From the NCBI GenBank assembly GCA_016716715.1, contig JADJVE010000006.1:129259-193258 (forward strand): a stretch of 64,000 nt of DNA, given 5' to 3'. A program made the position numbers and the translations under genes. This stretch comes from Acidobacteriota bacterium. Lineage in GTDB: Bacteria > Acidobacteriota > Thermoanaerobaculia > UBA5066. Below, piece after piece: positions 53,583 to 64,000 of the stretch (positions within the stretch are counted from its first letter, which is position 1; each line of letters starts with the position of its first letter). Below the pieces are notes generated by a model that had not been told where the DNA came from, ran no database searches, and saw nothing but the letters and a program-made list of their open reading frames with translations.

Positions 53583-55504
53583 ATGCTGGAGGAGAGTCCC
53601 CAGTTCATGGTCGAACCGAGCGTGGCGTCTGCGTGGCGGATCCTCGCGACCGGCGTTCCGCCTCGCGTCGCCGGGAACCTCGTCCGCGCCGCCGTGGGCG
53701 AGGCCGAGCCGGTCCCCGGCTTCGTCGACGTGGATGCCTTCGGGGAGTCCGAGTGGGAAAGACTCCGGCGCGAGCCGGGGGACGTCTTCCTCGTCTGGGA
53801 GGACGGATCCGCCGCCGGGGGCATCGAGCGCGTACAGGCGATCCATCTGAAGCAACCCGGAGCACCGATCGTGGCGCGCGTTCCCGAGGACCGGCCGGAT
53901 CTCGTGGCCGGGATGCTGCGCGCCGGGGTCCTCGAGATTTTCACGGAAGCCGGGCACTTCCGGGAAGCGCTCGACCGGGCCCGCGCCCGGCCCCGTTTGC
54001 GGACCGCGCGCGCCCGGACCTGCCGCTCCGGCTCGTGGCGGATGAGCCGGACCACGGCGTCGAGGGCCTCTTCCCGAACCTCTTCGACTGGATCTACGTC
54101 GTCGGCGTCGCCGAGGACGGCGTCCTGACCTTCCAGACCGTGAACCCTCCGCTGAACGCCGGGATCGGCTTCCTGAATCCCGACTTTGCAGGGCGTGCGG
54201 TGGGACAGTGTCTCGAAGGCACGAGTGCGGCGCAGCTCGTCCCGCACCTCGACCGCGTGATCTCCGAGGGGACGCCGCTGCAGTTCGAGGAGGAACATCC
54301 CGTCGGCGGCCGCACACGCGTGTTTCAAACGGTTCTGACTCCCGTGCGGAACAAGTGGGGGCGCATCCATCGCATCGCGGGGATTTCGCGCGACATCACG
54401 GCGCTGAAGGAAGCGCTCGCGGACCTGCGCGCGAGCGAGGAGCGGCTCGCCCACGCGCTGGAAGGCACGCAGCAGGCTCTCTGGGACTGGGACCTCGTGA
54501 CGGGCCGCCTCTACCGGAGCCCGCGCTGGTTCGAGATGCTCGGCCTCGACCCCGATTCGGTCGGCCCGACGCTCGAGGCCGGTCTCGGACGAGTCCACCC
54601 GGAGGATCGCCGGCAGGTCGAGGCCGCTCTGAACGCCCACCTCGAGGGACGGCTCCCGCGCTACCAGGCGGAGTACCGCATCCAGCCGCGGACCGGCGAC
54701 TGGATCTGGATCTTCGATGCCGGAAAGATCGTCTCGTGGGACGCCGCGAACCGCCCGGGGCGGCTCGCCGGAATGTGCACGGACATCACGGAGCGGCGCC
54801 GGGCCGAAGAGTCCCTCCGCGCCCTCGTCGGCGGCGTCGTCCACGAGATCCGGAACCCCGTCTACGGGATCTCGATCAACCTCGACGCGCTCGAGGCGAC
54901 GTTCGGCGACGACCCGCGCTACGCCTCGTTCGTCTCGGCGCTCCGCGAGAGCGCCGAACGGATCTCGAGCCTCATGAACGACCTGCGCGATTACGGCGAG
55001 CCGAGGACGCTGAACCCCGAGCCGTGCAACGTGCGCACGCTCCTCGACGGAGCCTGGCGATCCTGCGAGACGGCCGCCGCCGCGACCGCGCGCGTGGTCC
55101 GGGTGGACCTCGAGGATCCCAGTCTCGTCCTTCCGCTGAACGCCCGCCGCATGCACCAGGTCTTCCGCAACCTGATCGAAAACGCACTCCAGCACGCGCA
55201 CGGCGGAGGCGTGGTCGCCGTCACGGCCCGGCGCACGCGCGCCTCCGGCCACGACTGGTGGTCCTTCAGCGTCGACGACGACGGCCCCGGATTCGAAGGC
55301 GAGGCCCTCTCGCGCGCCTTCGAGCCGTTCTTCACGCGCCGCGAGGGCGGCACGGGACTCGGCCTCTCGATCGTCAAGCGCGTCGTCGAGGAGCACGGGG
55401 GAACCGTCGAGGCGAGCAACCGGCCGGAGGGCGGGGCGCGCGTCGTCGTCCGCCTCCCGGCGCCGCGCCAGAGGATGCAGCTACCGGAGGCCGCGCGTGG
55501 CTGA
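53583..55504 (+). CDS. PAS-domain sensor histidine kinase with an N-terminal receiver-like domain; apparent frameshift near 53990-54010
   Basis: Frame A (53583..) encodes a REC-like fold (DVFLVWEDGS...PIVARVPEDRPDLVAGMLRAGVLEIFTE) and becomes junk after ..REALDRA. Frame B is junk before and sensible after ..DLPLRLVADEPDHGVEGLF. It continues through two PAS domains, HisKA (VHEIRNP) and HATPase (DDGPGF...GTGLGLSIV). Confidence 0.6.
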
Positions 55505-56843
55505 GTCGCGGATCCTTCTCGTGGAGGACGATCCCGCCGTCCGGCACGGGCTCGCGGCGTTCCTCCGCGCGAGCGGACTCGACGTCGACGAGGCCGAGAA
55601 CCTGCGGAGAGCCCTCGACCTCTTCCGCGAGGTCGGCCACGACATCGTCGTCGCCGACTACAGCCTGCCGGACGGGACGTCGCTCGAGCTCCTCCCCGAG
55701 GTCAAGAAGGTCAGCGAGAACACGCCCTTCATCATCCTCACCGCGCACGGCTCGATCGACCTCGCGGTGCGTGCGATCAAGGAGGGCGCCGAGCAGTTCC
55801 TGACGAAGCCCGTCGAGTCCAAGGCACTCCTCGTCCTCGTGCGCCGGCTCCTGCAGCAGCAGAGGCTCCGCAGGAAGCAGGAGCTGGCCCTTCGCGAGCA
55901 GCCGGGCTCGTTCGACCCCTTTCTCGGCGCGAGCGCCGCGATCCGCCAGATGGAGGAACGCGCCCGCCTCATGCTCGAGTGGGACAGCCCCGTCCTGATC
56001 CTCGGGGAGACGGGCTCGGGCAAGGGCGTCCTCGCCCGCTGGCTTCACGCGAACGGCCCGCGCCGCGAGGAGGCGTTCGTCAACCTGAACTGCGCGGGCC
56101 TCTCGCGCGAGCTCCTCGAGTCCGAGCTTTTCGGCCACGAGCGCGGAGCGTTCACGGGCGCCGTGAACCCCAAGCAGGGCCTCCTCGAAGTCGGCCACCG
56201 GGGCATCGTGTTCCTCGACGAGATCGGCGACATGGACCCCGCGATCCAGCCGAAGCTCCTGAAAGCGCTCGAGGAGAAGACCTTCCGCCGGCTCGGCGAC
56301 GTGCGGGATCGCGTCGTCGACATCCGGCTCCTCGCGTCGACGAACCTCGACCTCGAGGAGGCCGTGCGCGCGCGGAAATTCCGCGACGACCTCTACTACC
56401 GAGTCAGCACGCTCACGCTGAAGATCCCTCCCTTGCGCGAACGGACGGAGGACATCCCGCTCCTCGCGCGCAACATCCTCCGCGCCGTGTGCAAGCGCAT
56501 GGGCAAGGCCGAGGTCATGCTCGGGCCTGAGGCGGAGCTGCAGCTGCTTCGTTACCCGTGGCCCGGGAACATCCGCGAGCTCGCGAACGTCCTCGAGCGC
56601 GCGATGATCCTCCTCAAGGGCGACCGGCTCGAGGCGCTGGACGTGAGCCTCGACGGGGCGCGGCAGACCGCGGCCCACGACGGCGATCTCGCGACGATGA
56701 AGGAGATGGAGCGCCTCCACATCGAGCGCGTGCTCCAGCACACGGGCGGCAACGTCGCGGAAGCGGCGGCCGTCCTCGGGATGGCCCGCCGGACGCTCTA
56801 CGACCGGCTAAAGGCCCTCGGGCTCGCTCCCGCCGCGGACTGA
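55497..56843 (+). CDS. Sigma-54-dependent response regulator (NtrC family: REC + AAA+ sigma-54 activator + Fis-type HTH)
   Basis: REC (ILLVEDDP...[12 protein letters not shown]). AAA+ with a GAFTGA loop ([15 protein letters not shown]), Walker A GETGSGKG, and [11 protein letters not shown]-terminal HTH ([19 protein letters not shown]). The GTG start overlaps the kinase stop. Confidence 0.9.
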
Positions 56844-56850
56844 GCGGGCG

Positions 56851-62444: not shown

Positions 62445-62505
62445 TCTGACGTTGGCGGCGAGCGCGATCCCCGCCAGGGCTCCCACGCTCCAGGAACTCC
62501 TGGAC

Positions 62506-64000
62506 ATGGAGAAGATGACCCTGTCGGCCAAGCCCCGGGACGCCCAGAGCGTCACCGAGCGCTGGATGCGCTACCTCGGTTTTCCGGGCGGCATCGCCCT
62601 CTTCCTCCTGGTCCTCTACCTGCCGCCCGGGATGGGCCTCAGCGCGGCGGCGCAATCGGGCACCGCCTGCTTCCTGCTCGCGCTGGTCTGGTGGGTCACG
62701 GAGCCCTTCCCGACCTACGTCACGTCCCTCGTCCTGATGTTCCTGCTGCTCGTGACGCGGACGTCGGCGGCCAAGCCGATCATGGACGTCCTCGGCATGG
62801 AGGTGATCTGGCTCAACCTCCTCGCGTTCATCCTCGCGGCGATGCTCGTGAAGACGCGCCTCGCCAAGAGGATGTCGCTCTTTCTCATCGTCAAGTTCGG
62901 GCGCAAGGCGTCCTGGGCGCTCCTGGCCTTCGTGATCATCCAGCTCGTCCTCGCCCCGCTCATTCCGGCGACGGCCGCGCGCTGCGTCATGACGCTGCCG
63001 CTGATGATCGTCGTCGCGAACATCTACGGATCGACCGAGGCCCATCCCAACAACTTCGGCAAGAACCTGTTTCTTCTGAATCTCGCGGGGATCTCGGTCC
63101 TCTCGTCCATCAGCATGACGGGGTCGAGCGCGAACCTCATCGCCGTGGGTTTCATCCAGAGCATGGGCGGCCACCGCATCTACTACATGGACTGGATGCG
63201 GGCGGGCGCCCCCATCGCCATCGTGACGATGCTCATCATGTGGTTCCTCGGCCGGAAGGTGATCTTCCCGATCCCGCAGGCGGAGCAGGTTCCGAGCGTC
63301 GAGGGAGGCCTCCCTCTCATCGAGGCGCAGTACGCCGCGATGGGGCGCCTGAGCTTTCAGGAGAAGAAGGCTCTCGTCATCTTCAGCCTCGTGCTCTTCC
63401 TGTGGATGACCGACATCTTCCACATGCGCTGGTTCGGCGTGGAGATCAGCGCGCCGTTCGCCGCGCTCCTCGGCTCGGTGATCGTGCTCTTCCCGCGATG
63501 GGGCGTCCTGCAGTGGCAGGAGGCCGACATCCCCTGGCACCTCCTCATCTTCAGCGCGGGCGCCTACGCGGGCGGCCTTGCCCTGGACGACACCGGCGCG
63601 GCCGAGTGGGGCGTGAGGATGCTGTTCGGAGGGATGAACCTGAAGGTCATCCCGTTCGGCGCGGCCTTCACGATCGTCATGGCCGTGATGATGTACAGCC
63701 ACCTGCTCACGACGTCGAAGACGGTGCGCACGATCATCATGATCCCCATCATCATCTCGATGTCGAAGGCCCTCGGCTGGGATCCCGTCTCGCTCGCCCT
63801 CCCCGCGGCGCTCTGCATCGACTGGGTGGTCGGGCTTCCGATCAGCGGCAAGCCGAACGTCATCCTCTTCTCCACGAACCAGTACTCCGTGATCGACAAC
63901 TTCAAGTACGGGATGACGACGTGCACGGTGGGCCTCGTCCTCCTCGTCCTCTCCGCCGCCACGTGGTTCCACTGGCTCGGAATCACGCCGTCCTTCTGGG
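62506..64000 (+). CDS. DASS/SLC13-type anion:Na+ symporter (ArsB/NhaD permease superfamily), 5' partial; runs off the window
   Basis: Not in the ORF track because there is no stop in the window. Frame +2 from ATG 62506 is open to the end and encodes a highly hydrophobic permease (..WWVTEPFPTYVTSLVLMFLLL..SSISMTGSSANLIAVGF..VVGLPISGKPNVILFST..). TTG 62452 is a possible earlier start. Confidence 0.75.
   Translation, partial: MEKMTLSAKPRDAQSVTERWMRYLGFPGGIALFLLVLYLPPGMGLSAAAQSGTACFLLALVWWVTEPFPTYVTSLVLMFLLLVTRTSAAKPIMDVLGMEVIWLNLLAFILAAMLVKTRLAKRMSLFLIVKFGRKASWALLAFVIIQLVLAPLIPATAARCVMTLPLMIVVANIYGSTEAHPNNFGKNLFLLNLAGISVLSSISMTGSSANLIAVGFIQSMGGHRIYYMDWMRAGAPIAIVTMLIMWFLGRKVIFPIPQAEQVPSVEGGLPLIEAQYAAMGRLSFQEKKALVIFSLVLFLWMTDIFHMRWFGVEISAPFAALLGSVIVLFPRWGVLQWQEADIPWHLLIFSAGAYAGGLALDDTGAAEWGVRMLFGGMNLKVIPFGAAFTIVMAVMMYSHLLTTSKTVRTIIMIPIIISMSKALGWDPVSLALPAALCIDWVVGLPISGKPNVILFSTNQYSVIDNFKYGMTTCTVGLVLLVLSAATWFHWLGITPSFW

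What the first reader, a model, noticed from the sequence alone, without database searches (positions are those of the whole stretch)
53583..64000. Sigma-54-controlled extracytoplasmic tri/poly/pyrophosphate scavenging locus (three CYTH proteins, secreted PPase, OprO/P porin, DASS transporter)
The last 10 kb form a coherent gene set that I have not seen described as a unit. A PAS histidine kinase and an NtrC-type sigma-54 activator are followed by two transcription units. The first is a signal-peptide protein with an N-terminal CYTH domain plus an unknown 380-aa domain, and a signal-peptide family I inorganic pyrophosphatase; cytoplasmic PPases normally lack signal peptides. The second is an OprO/OprP-type phosphate/pyrophosphate porin, a 198-aa unknown, a canonical NeuTTM-like CYTH triphosphatase, and a DASS anion symporter. 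CYTH enzymes hydrolyse tripolyphosphate or short polyP, and PPase finishes PPi to Pi. This suggests an outer-membrane/periplasmic pathway that degrades extracellular tri/polyphosphate and imports the products. It appears to be driven by sigma-54 rather than the usual PhoBR/Pho-box control.
Basis: partly seen in the sequence, partly recalled or inferred. Interest (0 to 1): 0.85.

Follow-up and report, generated by a model that had tools for sequence, protein, structure and literature searches.

The report
Sigma-54 condensed-phosphate scavenging gene cluster
An uncultured acidobacterium carries a conserved, undescribed two-operon gene set that most likely breaks down pyrophosphate, triphosphate and short polyphosphate outside the cytoplasm and imports the products, giving candidate genes for how bacteria use external polyphosphate.

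Summary
Pfam confirms a PAS histidine kinase, an NtrC-type sigma-54 activator (GAFTGA present), a family I pyrophosphatase with an N-terminal signal peptide, a Porin_O_P porin, one canonical NeuTTM-like CYTH and a DASS transporter.

"Three CYTH proteins" is right only at fold level. The 582-aa N-domain and the 198-aa protein have no Pfam hit and lack ExExK, but their AlphaFold models match triphosphate-tunnel enzymes.

The "unknown 380-aa domain" is a ~200-aa domain distantly related to CdiA/Rhs toxin tips and XopV/AopV type III effectors, followed by a Lys-rich tail.

Sigma-54 control is well supported. Two near-identical -24/-12 boxes each lie 89-103 bp downstream of a shared 27-bp upstream site. 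This pair is conserved in about 30 acidobacterial loci and occurs essentially nowhere else in 926 kb.

The 582-aa protein and the exported PPase are adjacent in 47 of 52 loci from two phyla. Beyond the window the operon continues with a membrane-anchored periplasmic protein and a fourth tunnel-fold protein; in close relatives PhoU_div and a PiT phosphate transporter follow.

No enzyme activity or inducing signal has been tested. The best reading is a new variant of the porin, periplasmic hydrolase and transporter scheme for phosphorus scavenging.

The parts
53583..55504 (+). Sensor histidine kinase with no membrane segment: unassigned N-terminal domain, two PAS domains, HisKA, HATPase_c. It has an apparent 1-nt frameshift in a C-run at about 53985-54002.
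   Evidence: Pfam hits. Single ORFs of 631-657 aa in relatives L060, L032 and L008. Always next to the activator in acidobacterial loci.
55497..56843 (+). NtrC-type sigma-54 enhancer-binding response regulator (REC, AAA+ Sigma54_activat with GAFTGA, Fis-type HTH).
   Evidence: Sigma54_activat 1.4e-58; Response_reg 2.6e-24; HTH_8 1.4e-12. GAFTGA at aa 217. NCBIfam places it only at the family level.
56852..56878 (+). Upstream activator site 1: CCGCAC-N5-GTGCGG-GTTTCCGCAC (a palindrome plus a third half-site), 89 bp upstream of the promoter box.
   Evidence: 0 matches expected in shuffles. Conserved upstream of the 582-aa gene in about 30 acidobacterial loci.
56941..56955 (+). Sigma-54 -24/-12 promoter box TGGCTTGGGCCTTGC, 25 nt upstream of the ATG of the 582-aa gene.
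   Evidence: TGGC-N8-TGC is conserved at the same place in relatives.
56981..58729 (+). Exported 582-aa protein: Sec signal peptide, divergent triphosphate-tunnel (TTM) fold domain (aa ~30-315), linker, XopV/toxin-CT-like domain (aa ~340-535), and a Lys/Ala/Pro-rich tail ending in NDDPS.
58753..59520 (+). Exported family I inorganic pyrophosphatase (255 aa) with a signal peptide and clade-specific N- and C-terminal extensions.
   Evidence: PF00719 3.6e-27. Matches PDB PPases down to 1.4e-15. Signal peptide in 45 of 47 orthologues. Catalytic motifs conserved, with the position aligned to E. coli Glu31 (my numbering) being Gln here.
59552..59593 (+). Intrinsic terminator (12-bp stem followed by a T-run) that ends operon 1.
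   Evidence: sequence.
59617..59643 (+). Upstream activator site 2: CCGCAC-N5-GTGCGG-GTTCCCGCAC, 103 bp upstream of the promoter box.
   Evidence: Conserved upstream of the porin gene in at least 16 loci.
59720..59734 (+). Sigma-54 -24/-12 promoter box TGGCTTGGGCTTTGC of operon 2.
59795..61246 (+). Outer-membrane porin of Pfam family Porin_O_P, with a signal peptide and a Lys-rich N-terminal segment. The probable start is the ATG at 59801.
   Evidence: 1.2e-30, profile 28-364 of 370. No direct similarity to any solved chain at E <= 1.
61349..61942 (+). Cytoplasmic 197-aa divergent TTM-fold protein ('P198'). It has PRWEWR in place of ExExK and a conserved EHED motif.
   Evidence: No Pfam or PDB sequence hit. 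AF2 pLDDT 94.6. Foldseek top 30 hits are almost all TTM/CYTH, best E 3e-7. Conserved residues.
61971..62444 (+). Canonical CYTH protein (157 aa). Its closest solved relative is the Nitrosomonas europaea inorganic triphosphatase NeuTTM.
   Evidence: PF01928 3.9e-15. 3TYP/2FBL at 2e-17, with EIERK and the basic and acidic tunnel residues aligned.
62506..64000 (+). DASS/SLC13-family anion symporter, cut by the window end (502 aa in L001).
   Evidence: PF00939 2.8e-58. TIGR00785 scores 187.6 bits, just under the 198.6 cut-off. Best PDB relatives are SLC13A2/A5/A1. Followed in L001 by P245 and then P198b.

Best explanation
This is a two-operon regulon for acquiring phosphorus from condensed inorganic phosphates: pyrophosphate, tripolyphosphate and short polyphosphate, possibly also nucleoside triphosphates. 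None of the activities has been tested.

Shown:
- A cytoplasmic PAS histidine kinase and an NtrC-type activator sit next to two sigma-54 promoters. Each promoter is preceded by the same three-half-site upstream element.
- Operon 1 encodes two exported proteins: a tunnel-fold protein fused to a toxin/effector-type domain, and a family I pyrophosphatase.
- Operon 2 encodes a Porin_O_P porin, three cytoplasmic tunnel-fold proteins (one of them NeuTTM-like), a DASS anion symporter and a membrane-anchored periplasmic protein. In close relatives PhoU_div and a PiT phosphate transporter follow.

Inferred:
- Polyanionic phosphates enter through the porin.
- In the periplasm the tunnel-fold domain shortens PPPi or polyP, and the PPase converts PPi (and perhaps PPPi) to Pi.
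- Pi enters through PiT.
- DASS, which is always paired with the NeuTTM-like triphosphatase, imports a condensed phosphate such as PPPi or PPi, or Pi itself. The cytoplasmic tunnel-fold enzymes then finish hydrolysis.

The signal sensed by the kinase is unknown.
For: - Domain identities.
- Tunnel fold of both divergent proteins.
- Export: signal peptides are conserved in orthologues, and each half of the split 582-aa protein has its own.
- Co-conservation: the 582-aa gene and the PPase are adjacent in 47 of 52 loci from Acidobacteriota and Betaproteobacteria, plus one Lysobacter and one Syntrophus MAG. CYTH and DASS are adjacent in nearly every locus holding both, usually followed by P245 and P198b.
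- Phosphate genes recruited in different lineages: PhoU_div with one or two PHO4/PiT in 10-11 loci, including the window's closest relatives L030 and L035; His_Phos_1 and a PLC/P1-nuclease-like protein in 11-13 Holophagaceae loci; Metallophos. One homologue has its tunnel domain fused to His_Phos_1.
- Regulon: the UAS followed by a sigma-54 box lies upstream of only these two operons. The UAS has one other, weak match in 926 kb of related loci and none expected in shuffles of the window.
- Published knowledge: NeuTTM and YgiF are specific PPPases, and E. coli family I PPase is that organism's main PPPase (PMC3440374). How exogenous polyP is accessed and transported is stated to be unknown (PMC13318637).
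- From my own knowledge: yeast Pho87/90/91 phosphate transporters are DASS-related.
Against: - No activity, expression or growth data exist; every organism is an uncultured MAG.
- The exported tunnel domain and P198/P198b lack the first Glu of ExExK (G-R-E-Y-K and R-x-E-x-R), so catalysis is uncertain.
- The window's PPase has Gln at the position aligned to E. coli Glu31 (E. coli numbering from my own knowledge).
- The porin is not detectably similar to any solved chain.
- In a weak pairwise alignment DASS appears to lack the first SNT substrate motif.
- Control is by sigma-54 or LysR, with no recognisable Pho box, so phosphate limitation may not be the trigger.
- The toxin/effector-type domain has no place in a simple polyphosphatase scheme.
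- Three cytoplasmic tunnel-fold proteins seem excessive for mopping up imported PPPi.
Confidence: 0.55

Rival explanations
1. The system scavenges extracellular nucleotides or nucleic acids rather than inorganic polyphosphate. The XopV/toxin-like domain would be a nuclease or nucleotide pyrophosphohydrolase. The tunnel domain would act on NTPs or 5'-triphosphate ends, and the PPase would remove the PPi released. Pi and perhaps other anions would then be imported.
For: - The C-domain is homologous to C-terminal toxin tips of CdiA and Rhs proteins. From general knowledge, such tips are most often nucleases or nucleotide-targeting enzymes.
- Holophagaceae loci add a protein resembling S1/P1 nuclease or phospholipase C, plus a histidine phosphatase.
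- Some TTMs hydrolyse NTPs (general knowledge).
Against: - The activity of the XopV-like superfamily is unknown.
- The closest characterised relative of the canonical CYTH is specific for inorganic PPPi.
- Many homologues are the tunnel domain alone.
- No nucleoside transporter or 5'-nucleotidase is conserved in the cluster.
Confidence: 0.2
2. The system is a defence or homeostasis response to chelating condensed phosphates, not nutrition. PPi, PPPi and polyP strip Ca2+ and Mg2+ from the envelope. A stress-type sigma-54 two-component system would switch on periplasmic and cytoplasmic hydrolases to destroy them.
For: - Control is sigma-54/NtrC-type or LysR rather than Pho.
- Hydrolases are present on both sides of the inner membrane.
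- PPPi is proposed to be cytotoxic through Ca2+ binding (PMC3440374).
Against: - A dedicated anion porin and importers (DASS, PiT with PhoU_div, SulP) are co-transcribed or adjacent. That increases entry of the compound, which fits uptake better than exclusion.
- The kinase has no periplasmic sensor domain.
Confidence: 0.12
3. The cluster is a cyclic-nucleotide or other signalling module. One or more CYTH/tunnel-fold proteins would act as class IV adenylate cyclases whose product regulates the anion transporters.
For: - CYTH includes CyaB-type cyclases.
- Betaproteobacterial loci carry a SulP-STAS transporter fused to a cNMP-binding domain next to P198b.
Against: - The canonical CYTH aligns best with the PPPase NeuTTM.
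- The cNMP-binding transporter is absent from all acidobacterial loci.
- This reading does not explain the exported PPase or the exported tunnel-fold protein.
Confidence: 0.05
4. The 582-aa protein is an antibacterial or anti-host toxin, and its neighbours provide immunity or support.
For: Its C-domain belongs to a superfamily found at CdiA and Rhs toxin tips and in XopV/AopV type III effectors.
Against: - It has only a Sec signal peptide. There is no TPS, Rhs, PAAR or pretoxin module and no type III, V or VI secretion genes nearby.
- It is strictly linked to a PPase and to phosphate transporters.
- It is not polymorphic; orthologues are 55-90% identical along their whole length.
Confidence: 0.03

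Closest known systems
Pho-regulon scavenging of polyanionic phosphates (E. coli PhoE + PhoA + Pst; Pseudomonas OprO/OprP + periplasmic phosphatases)
   Same: The layout is the same: an anion-selective outer-membrane porin, periplasmic hydrolases that release Pi from condensed phosphates, and inner-membrane phosphate transporters, all induced together.
   Different: - The hydrolases are a tunnel-fold protein and a family I PPase, not alkaline phosphatases.
- The transporters are DASS and PiT/PhoU_div, not Pst.
- Control is by a sigma-54 enhancer-binding protein (LysR in Betaproteobacteria) with no Pho box found.
- The porin shares only the Pfam family with OprO/OprP.
NeuTTM (NE1496) and E. coli YgiF, specific inorganic triphosphatases of the CYTH/TTM superfamily
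   Same: - The 157-aa protein aligns over its full length with NeuTTM (E 2e-17), with EIERK and the tunnel Arg/Lys/Glu residues in place.
   Different: - Known bacterial TTMs are cytoplasmic, and their physiological substrate source is unknown.
- Here one tunnel-fold domain is exported.
- Two or three members lack ExExK and have no sequence-level similarity to CYTH.
Soluble family I inorganic pyrophosphatase (Ppa)
   Same: PF00719, with the DxDxxD and DxxxxDxK motifs and the YP.NYG loop conserved.
   Different: - It carries a cleavable-type signal peptide that is conserved across the clade.
- It has ~30-aa N-terminal and ~50-aa C-terminal extensions.
- No description of a bacterial periplasmic or secreted family I PPase was found in the held literature.
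XopV/AopV type III effectors and CdiA-CT/Rhs-CT polymorphic toxin domains
   Same: - They share the core signature GH(P)…R-I-x-G-E…S-G-R-Y…R.
- NF041375 hits the C-domain and all intermediate sequences over the same model region.
   Different: - The score is far below the family cut-off (29 bits against 220).
- Here the domain is Sec-exported and is either fused to or encoded next to a tunnel-fold domain.
- There is no delivery module, and the domain sits in a phosphate-related operon.
Yeast polyP/Pi module: VTC (TTM-domain polyP polymerase) and Pho87/90/91 (DASS-related Pi transporters)
   Same: A triphosphate-tunnel protein and a DASS-type anion transporter serve the same phosphate and polyphosphate economy. 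VTC domains appear among the fold matches.
   Different: - There are no SPX domains.
- The direction is presumably degradative and importing.
- The resemblance is by analogy, partly from my own knowledge, and is not a tested homology of the system.

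Membership tests
CYTH / triphosphate tunnel metalloenzyme - 157-aa protein (61971-62444) | Pfam PF01928 hit above the gathering score | tested here: met
   56.6 bits against a cut-off of 23.2, E 3.9e-15.
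CYTH / triphosphate tunnel metalloenzyme - 157-aa protein (61971-62444) | N-terminal ExExK motif plus basic and acidic tunnel residues of NeuTTM | tested here: met
   E4-I-E6-R-K8. R39/R41, K52, K87/R89 and E115/E117 align with NeuTTM in the 3TYP/2FBL alignment. Their roles come from published NeuTTM work, recalled from my own knowledge.
CYTH / TTM - 197-aa protein P198 (61349-61942) | Sequence-level membership (Pfam CYTH, or profile-profile match to the CYTH family) | tested here: not met
   No Pfam hit for any of 20 family members at E <= 10. hhalign probability 0.6%. No PDB hit with a family profile.
CYTH / TTM - 197-aa protein P198 (61349-61942) | Eight-stranded tunnel fold | tested here: met
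   AF2 pLDDT 94.6. 48 Foldseek hits at E <= 1e-3, nearly all TTMs plus structurally related Mediator Med18/20; best is ThTPase 5A64 at 3.2e-7, TM 0.55. This rests on a predicted model, not a solved structure.
CYTH / TTM - 197-aa protein P198 (61349-61942) | ExExK metal and phosphate motif on strand 1 | tested here: not met
   The invariant motif is P-R-W-E-W-R, that is RxExR. The paralogue P198b has P-R-A-E-F-R. An acidic E-H-E-D motif on a late strand is conserved.
CYTH / TTM - N-domain of the 582-aa protein | Tunnel fold | tested here: met
CYTH / TTM - N-domain of the 582-aa protein | Pfam CYTH hit and ExExK motif | tested here: not met
   No Pfam hit at E <= 0.1. hhalign probability 0.15%. 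The motif is G-R-E-Y-K: the second Glu and the Lys are kept, the first Glu is replaced.
Family I inorganic pyrophosphatase | PF00719 hit and conserved active-site Asp, Lys and Tyr motifs | tested here: met
   95.5 bits against a cut-off of 23.5. GGDGDxxD, DxGExDDK, YPxNYG and YK are conserved in 43 orthologues. The position aligned to E. coli Glu31 (my numbering) is Gln in the window and Glu in 29 of 43.
Family I inorganic pyrophosphatase | Cytoplasmic, leaderless protein of about 175 aa (bacterial type) | tested here: not met
   255 aa with an N-terminal n/h/c-type leader in 45 of 47 orthologues. NCBIfam equivalog scores are far below their cut-offs, 66 against 200.
OprO/OprP phosphate/pyrophosphate-selective porins | Pfam Porin_O_P membership | tested here: met
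   107.5 bits against a cut-off of 20.9, covering profile positions 28-364 of 370.
OprO/OprP phosphate/pyrophosphate-selective porins | Direct similarity to OprP/OprO; arginine ladder and lysine cluster that give phosphate selectivity | tested here: inconclusive
   No solved chain, OprP/OprO included if represented, was found by phmmer at E <= 1. The selectivity residues could not be mapped without a reliable alignment or model.
DASS (SLC13) anion:cation symporters | PF00939 or TIGR00785 membership | tested here: met
   PF00939 scores 198.5 bits against a cut-off of 27. TIGR00785 scores 187.6 bits, just under its 198.6 cut-off.
DASS (SLC13) anion:cation symporters | Two SNT hairpin-tip motifs that bind substrate and Na+ | tested here: inconclusive
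   In the pairwise alignment with SLC13A2, 'WISNTAT' aligns to 'LIPATAA' in a weak 15-bit segment, and the second tip is K-P-N-V against P-P-N-A. The alignment is too weak to be sure.
Sigma-54-dependent, enhancer-activated operons | GG-N10-GC (-24/-12) promoter, an upstream activator site about 100 bp away, and an adjacent enhancer-binding protein with GAFTGA | tested here: met
   - TGGCTTGGGCYTTGC occurs twice.
- The shared 27-bp site has none expected by chance.
- Both elements are conserved in position in about 30 and at least 16 loci, and the site has one other, weak match in 926 kb.
- GAFTGA is at aa 217.
- Neither rpoN nor transcription was tested.
Pho regulon (PhoBR) | Pho box upstream of the operons; PhoB/PhoR as regulators | tested here: not met
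   No match to CTGTCAT-N4-CTGTCAT with up to 3 mismatches in the locus, and none upstream in betaproteobacterial loci with up to 4 mismatches beyond scattered weak hits. The acidobacterial Pho box is unknown, so this is a weak test.
XopV/AopV type III effector family (NF041375) | Score above the curated cut-off | tested here: not met
   29.2 bits against a cut-off of 220, E 6.5e-7, model positions 167-251 only. Homology at superfamily level is supported through intermediates.
Polymorphic toxin systems | Toxin domain at the tip of a delivery protein (Rhs, CdiA and similar) with an adjacent immunity gene | tested here: not met
   Distant relatives have TPS with Fil_haemagg or RHS modules. The window protein has only a Sec leader and a tunnel-fold domain. 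The downstream gene is a PPase.

The most novel reading that the evidence does not exclude
The exported tunnel-fold domain and the XopV-like domain may form a new two-part periplasmic enzyme system that attacks phosphoanhydride bonds in polyphosphate or nucleoside triphosphates, feeding an exported pyrophosphatase. DASS, with its anchored periplasmic partner P245, may be the first bacterial importer of a condensed phosphate (PPPi or PPi), which the NeuTTM-like enzyme hydrolyses inside the cell. If so, the locus would do three things. It would give specific bacterial triphosphatases their long-sought physiological substrate source. It would define the first genetic pathway for bacterial use of exogenous polyphosphate. 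It would also suggest a biochemical activity for XopV/AopV effectors and a class of CdiA/Rhs toxins, namely destruction of triphosphates or polyP in the target cell.
Probability: 0.25. Interest if true: 0.85.

Novelty: new variant of a known kind. Interest (0 to 1): 0.68.

Why it matters
- How microbes access and take up external polyphosphate and tripolyphosphate is explicitly described as unknown (PMC13318637).
- The physiological role of specific bacterial triphosphatases such as NeuTTM and YgiF is also unresolved, because PPPi could not be detected in cells (PMC3440374).
- This cluster offers a concrete, conserved and testable gene set for both questions: porin, exported tunnel-fold protein, exported pyrophosphatase, DASS paired with a NeuTTM-like enzyme, and PiT.
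- It occurs in Acidobacteriota and Betaproteobacteria. Several MAG names point to wastewater plants, where condensed phosphates should be abundant (an inference from the names, not checked).
- It supplies a clean sigma-54 regulon with a defined activator-binding site.
- It gives the first functional context for an uncharacterised toxin/effector domain superfamily that includes the plant-pathogen effectors XopV and AopV.

Tried and rejected
- Sequence searches for the 582-aa and 198-aa proteins found nothing. This covers Pfam, PDB with family profiles and profile-profile hhalign against the CYTH157 family. Only predicted structures gave an assignment.
- E. coli-type Pho boxes were not found: none in the locus and only scattered 4-mismatch hits in betaproteobacterial loci.
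- A third sigma-54-like box at 19793-19807 (minus strand) lies inside a membrane-protein ORF and has no upstream site. I treat it as a chance match.
- JGI names several P198 homologues 'exopolyphosphatase/GppA'. I could not find a fused Ppx-GppA form to justify the name, and I treat it as unverified annotation.
- Exact-match look-ups for the source contig failed, both with the 100%-identical PPase P0389 and with the window's CYTH. The genes after P198b are therefore inferred from 85-95% identical relatives (L030, L035).
- The afdb50 fold library was not available.
- The toxin and cyclase readings were considered and given low weight; see the rival explanations.

Full report
**1. What is in the sequence**

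The window is about 70% G+C. From 53.1 kb to its end all real genes lie on the + strand. Pfam gives the following.

| Coordinates | Product | Key evidence |
|---|---|---|
| 53107-53526 | Fur-family regulator | Pfam FUR, 5.6e-26 |
| 53583-55504 | Soluble histidine kinase | Unassigned N-domain, PAS_4, PAS_3, HisKA, HATPase_c |
| 55497-56843 | NtrC-type activator | REC, Sigma54_activat 1.4e-58, AAA lid, HTH_8; GAFTGA at aa 217 |
| 56981-58729 | 582-aa protein | No Pfam hit |
| 58753-59520 | Family I pyrophosphatase | PF00719, 3.6e-27 |
| 59795-61246 | Porin | Porin_O_P, 1.2e-30 |
| 61349-61942 | 197-aa protein | No Pfam hit |
| 61971-62444 | CYTH protein | PF01928, 3.9e-15 |
| 62506 to past 64000 | DASS symporter | PF00939, 2.8e-58; runs off the window |

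An intrinsic terminator at 59552-59583, followed by a T-run, separates the PPase from the porin gene. The kinase gene shows an apparent 1-nt frameshift in a C-run near 53985-54002. Relatives L032, L008 and L060 have one ORF of 631-657 aa. This is probably an assembly error, possibly a pseudogene.

**2. Sigma-54 control**

Two almost identical -24/-12 boxes are present: TGGCTTGGGCCTTGC at 56941 and TGGCTTGGGCTTTGC at 59720. They lie 25 and 66 nt upstream of the two first genes.

Each box is preceded, 89 and 103 bp upstream, by the same 27-bp element, CCGCAC-N5-GTGCGG-GTTYCCGCAC. This is a palindrome plus a third half-site. Shuffled sequence gives no such match.

I fetched 52 related loci from one-genome-per-species contigs. 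The same element is followed 90-104 bp later by TGGC-N8-TGC upstream of the 582-aa gene in about 30 acidobacterial loci. It is also found upstream of the porin gene in at least 16 loci. It has one other, weak match in 926 kb.

Where the porin gene directly abuts the PPase gene there is only the first promoter, so those loci have one operon. This is a strong phylogenetic footprint for a two-promoter regulon of the adjacent activator.

No E. coli-type Pho box is present.

Betaproteobacterial versions lack the kinase, the activator, the upstream element and the Porin_O_P porin. They have a divergent LysR regulator and a Porin_4 porin instead.

**3. Exported proteins**

No signal-peptide predictor was available. 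The 582-aa protein, the PPase and the porin all begin with a basic n-region, a hydrophobic core and an AXA-type site.

- 45 of 47 PPase orthologues have such a leader.
- In Holophaga (L053) the two halves of the 582-aa protein are separate genes, each with its own leader. This is independent evidence that both halves work outside the cytoplasm.
- The PPase clade is 251-265 aa long and has conserved N- and C-terminal extensions.
- The PPase keeps the family I catalytic motifs. The position aligned to E. coli Glu31 (my numbering) is Gln in the window copy and Glu in 29 of 43 orthologues.
- I found no paper describing a bacterial periplasmic or secreted family I PPase.

**4. The 'CYTH' proteins**

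The 157-aa protein is a canonical CYTH. Its closest solved relative is the Nitrosomonas europaea inorganic triphosphatase NeuTTM (3TYP/2FBL, 2e-17). EIERK and the tunnel Arg, Lys and Glu residues are aligned.

The 197-aa protein family has about 200 members, all without a Pfam assignment. It shows no sequence signal to CYTH by Pfam, PDB profile or hhalign. Its AlphaFold model (pLDDT 94.6) matches triphosphate-tunnel enzymes almost exclusively; the best is thiamine triphosphatase at 3e-7, probability 1.0. Its invariant residues are P-R-W-E-W-R, K64, E75, E164-H-E-D and others. They lie on the predicted strands, but the ExExK motif is replaced by RxExR.

So 'three CYTH proteins' is true of the fold but not of the family signature. 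Catalysis by the two divergent ones is not established.

A fourth member, P198b, lies just beyond the window. It is about 33% identical to P198 and carries P-R-A-E-F-R.

**5. The rest of the 582-aa protein**

The family exists in two forms: full-length proteins of 580-640 aa, and proteins of about 320 aa that are the tunnel domain alone. One member is fused to a histidine phosphatase domain.

I searched a profile of the C-terminal domain (aa ~340-535) against 1.8 billion representative proteins. Besides orthologues, it found about 200 distant relatives. Many of them sit at the extreme C-terminus of very large proteins.

- Those large proteins carry TPS secretion and haemagglutinin repeats (CdiA type) or RHS/YD repeats.
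- NCBIfam model NF041375, the XopV/AopV type III effector family, hits the window protein (6.5e-7).
- The same model hits every intermediate sequence over the same model region (1e-7 to 6e-14).
- The shared signature is GH(P)…R-I-x-G-E…S-G-R-Y…R.

No solved structure or known activity exists for this superfamily. The protein ends in a Lys/Ala/Pro-rich stretch and a conserved KKxKAAxNDDPS tail.

**6. Gene neighbourhood**

- The 582-aa gene and the exported PPase are adjacent in 47 of 52 loci. Most loci are Thermoanaerobaculia, Holophagales/Geothrix, Rhodocyclales or Burkholderiales MAGs, plus one Lysobacter and one Syntrophus MAG.
- CYTH157 and DASS are adjacent in nearly every locus that holds both. 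They are usually followed by P245 and then P198b.
- P245 has a signal peptide, about 190 aa and a C-terminal membrane helix. Its start overlaps the DASS stop.
- CYTH157, DASS and P198b are 65-91% identical between the two phyla, which implies recent lateral transfer.

Lineage-specific additions are all phosphate-related or anion transporters:

| Lineage | Added genes |
|---|---|
| Thermoanaerobaculia and some Holophagales, including the window's closest relatives L030 and L035 | PhoU_div plus one or two PHO4/PiT phosphate transporters, after P198b |
| Holophagaceae | His_Phos_1, a Zn-PLC/S1-P1-nuclease-like protein and DUF4010 |
| Betaproteobacteria | SulP-STAS-cNMP-binding transporter and a Metallophos phosphoesterase |

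**7. Interpretation**

The architecture is porin, exported hydrolases and inner-membrane anion or phosphate transporters, under one regulator. This mirrors classical Pho-regulon scavenging of polyanionic phosphates, but with different parts.

The only components with characterised close relatives point to phosphoanhydrides. NeuTTM and YgiF are specific PPPases, and family I PPase is the main PPPase of E. coli (PMC3440374).

I therefore favour a regulon for using PPi, PPPi and short polyP, perhaps also NTPs, at confidence 0.55. Periplasmic hydrolysis to Pi would be followed by uptake through PiT.

DASS is strictly paired with a cytoplasmic triphosphatase. This suggests that DASS brings in a condensed species as well. 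That step is inference.

Rival readings are:

- nucleotide or nucleic-acid scavenging driven by the toxin-like domain;
- detoxification of chelating polyphosphates;
- cyclic-nucleotide signalling;
- a toxin.

The evidence for and against each is in the rival-explanation entries. None of the activities, the inducer or the transported species has been tested, and all carriers are uncultured.

**8. Novelty and verdict**

I found no description of this gene set, of an exported bacterial tunnel-fold protein, or of an exported family I PPase. A 2026 paper states that how exogenous polyP is accessed and transported remains unknown (PMC13318637).

The system is best classed as a new variant of a known kind: extracytoplasmic phosphate scavenging built from unfamiliar enzymes and placed under sigma-54 control.

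Its interpretation is plausible and now better supported by comparative genomics, but it remains biochemically untested and needs the corrections given above.

Noticed in passing
window 53985-54002: The histidine kinase reading frame shifts by one base in a run of C. Relatives L032 and L008 (83-91% identical) read through as one 655-657-aa ORF. This is either a homopolymer assembly error or an inactivated sensor.
   Followed up: partly
window 57990-58590 (582-aa protein, aa ~340-535); P0277-P0300, P0359: This domain links three groups that have no Pfam model or known activity: exported proteins of phosphate loci, C-terminal tips of CdiA and Rhs toxins, and XopV/AopV type III effectors of Xanthomonas and Acidovorax. 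The shared signature is GH(P)…RIxGE…SGRY…R.
   Followed up: partly
window 58600-58729: A Lys/Ala/Pro-rich low-complexity stretch is followed by a C-terminal tail, KKxKAAxNDDPS. The tail is conserved in orthologues from both Acidobacteriota and Betaproteobacteria. It could be a sorting signal, a polyanion-binding tail or a partner-binding tail.
   Followed up: no
L001 7879-8836; L030 17090-19900; L060 16835-20402: The operon continues past the window end with P245 (exported, C-terminal membrane anchor, start overlapping the DASS stop) and P198b, a fourth tunnel-fold paralogue that is 65-91% identical across phyla. In close relatives PhoU_div and PiT phosphate transporters follow.
   Followed up: yes
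L028 6584-9796; L059 4591-7533: In betaproteobacterial versions P198b sits next to a SulP-STAS anion transporter fused to a cyclic-nucleotide-binding domain and a Metallophos phosphoesterase. They also have a LysR regulator and a Porin_4 porin in place of the sigma-54 system and the Porin_O_P porin.
   Followed up: partly
window 58963-58965 (PPase residue 71): The position aligned to E. coli PPase Glu31 (my numbering) is Gln in the window copy. It is Glu in 29, Met in 7 and Gln in 4 of 43 sequences, the window included.
   Followed up: partly
window 53107-53526: A Fur-family regulator lies directly upstream of the kinase. It occupies the same position in L008 and L037 but lies about 3 kb away in L030, so it is probably not part of the regulon.
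   Followed up: partly
window 19793-19807 (minus strand): A sigma-54-like box, TGGCTTGCGCTTTGC, has one mismatch to the locus boxes. It lies inside a large membrane-protein ORF with no upstream activator site and is probably a chance match.
   Followed up: yes
window 59860-60080 (porin aa ~22-95): The mature porin starts with a Lys/Glu/Ala-rich, probably coiled-coil segment that lies outside the Porin_O_P match. Its function is unknown.
   Followed up: no
L019 11730-12317; L022/L060 20440-21177; L025 3036-3611 (minus strand): Some loci carry an extra stand-alone copy of the XopV-like domain, 58-62% identical to the fused one. In L060 it lies next to a Metallophos gene.
   Followed up: no
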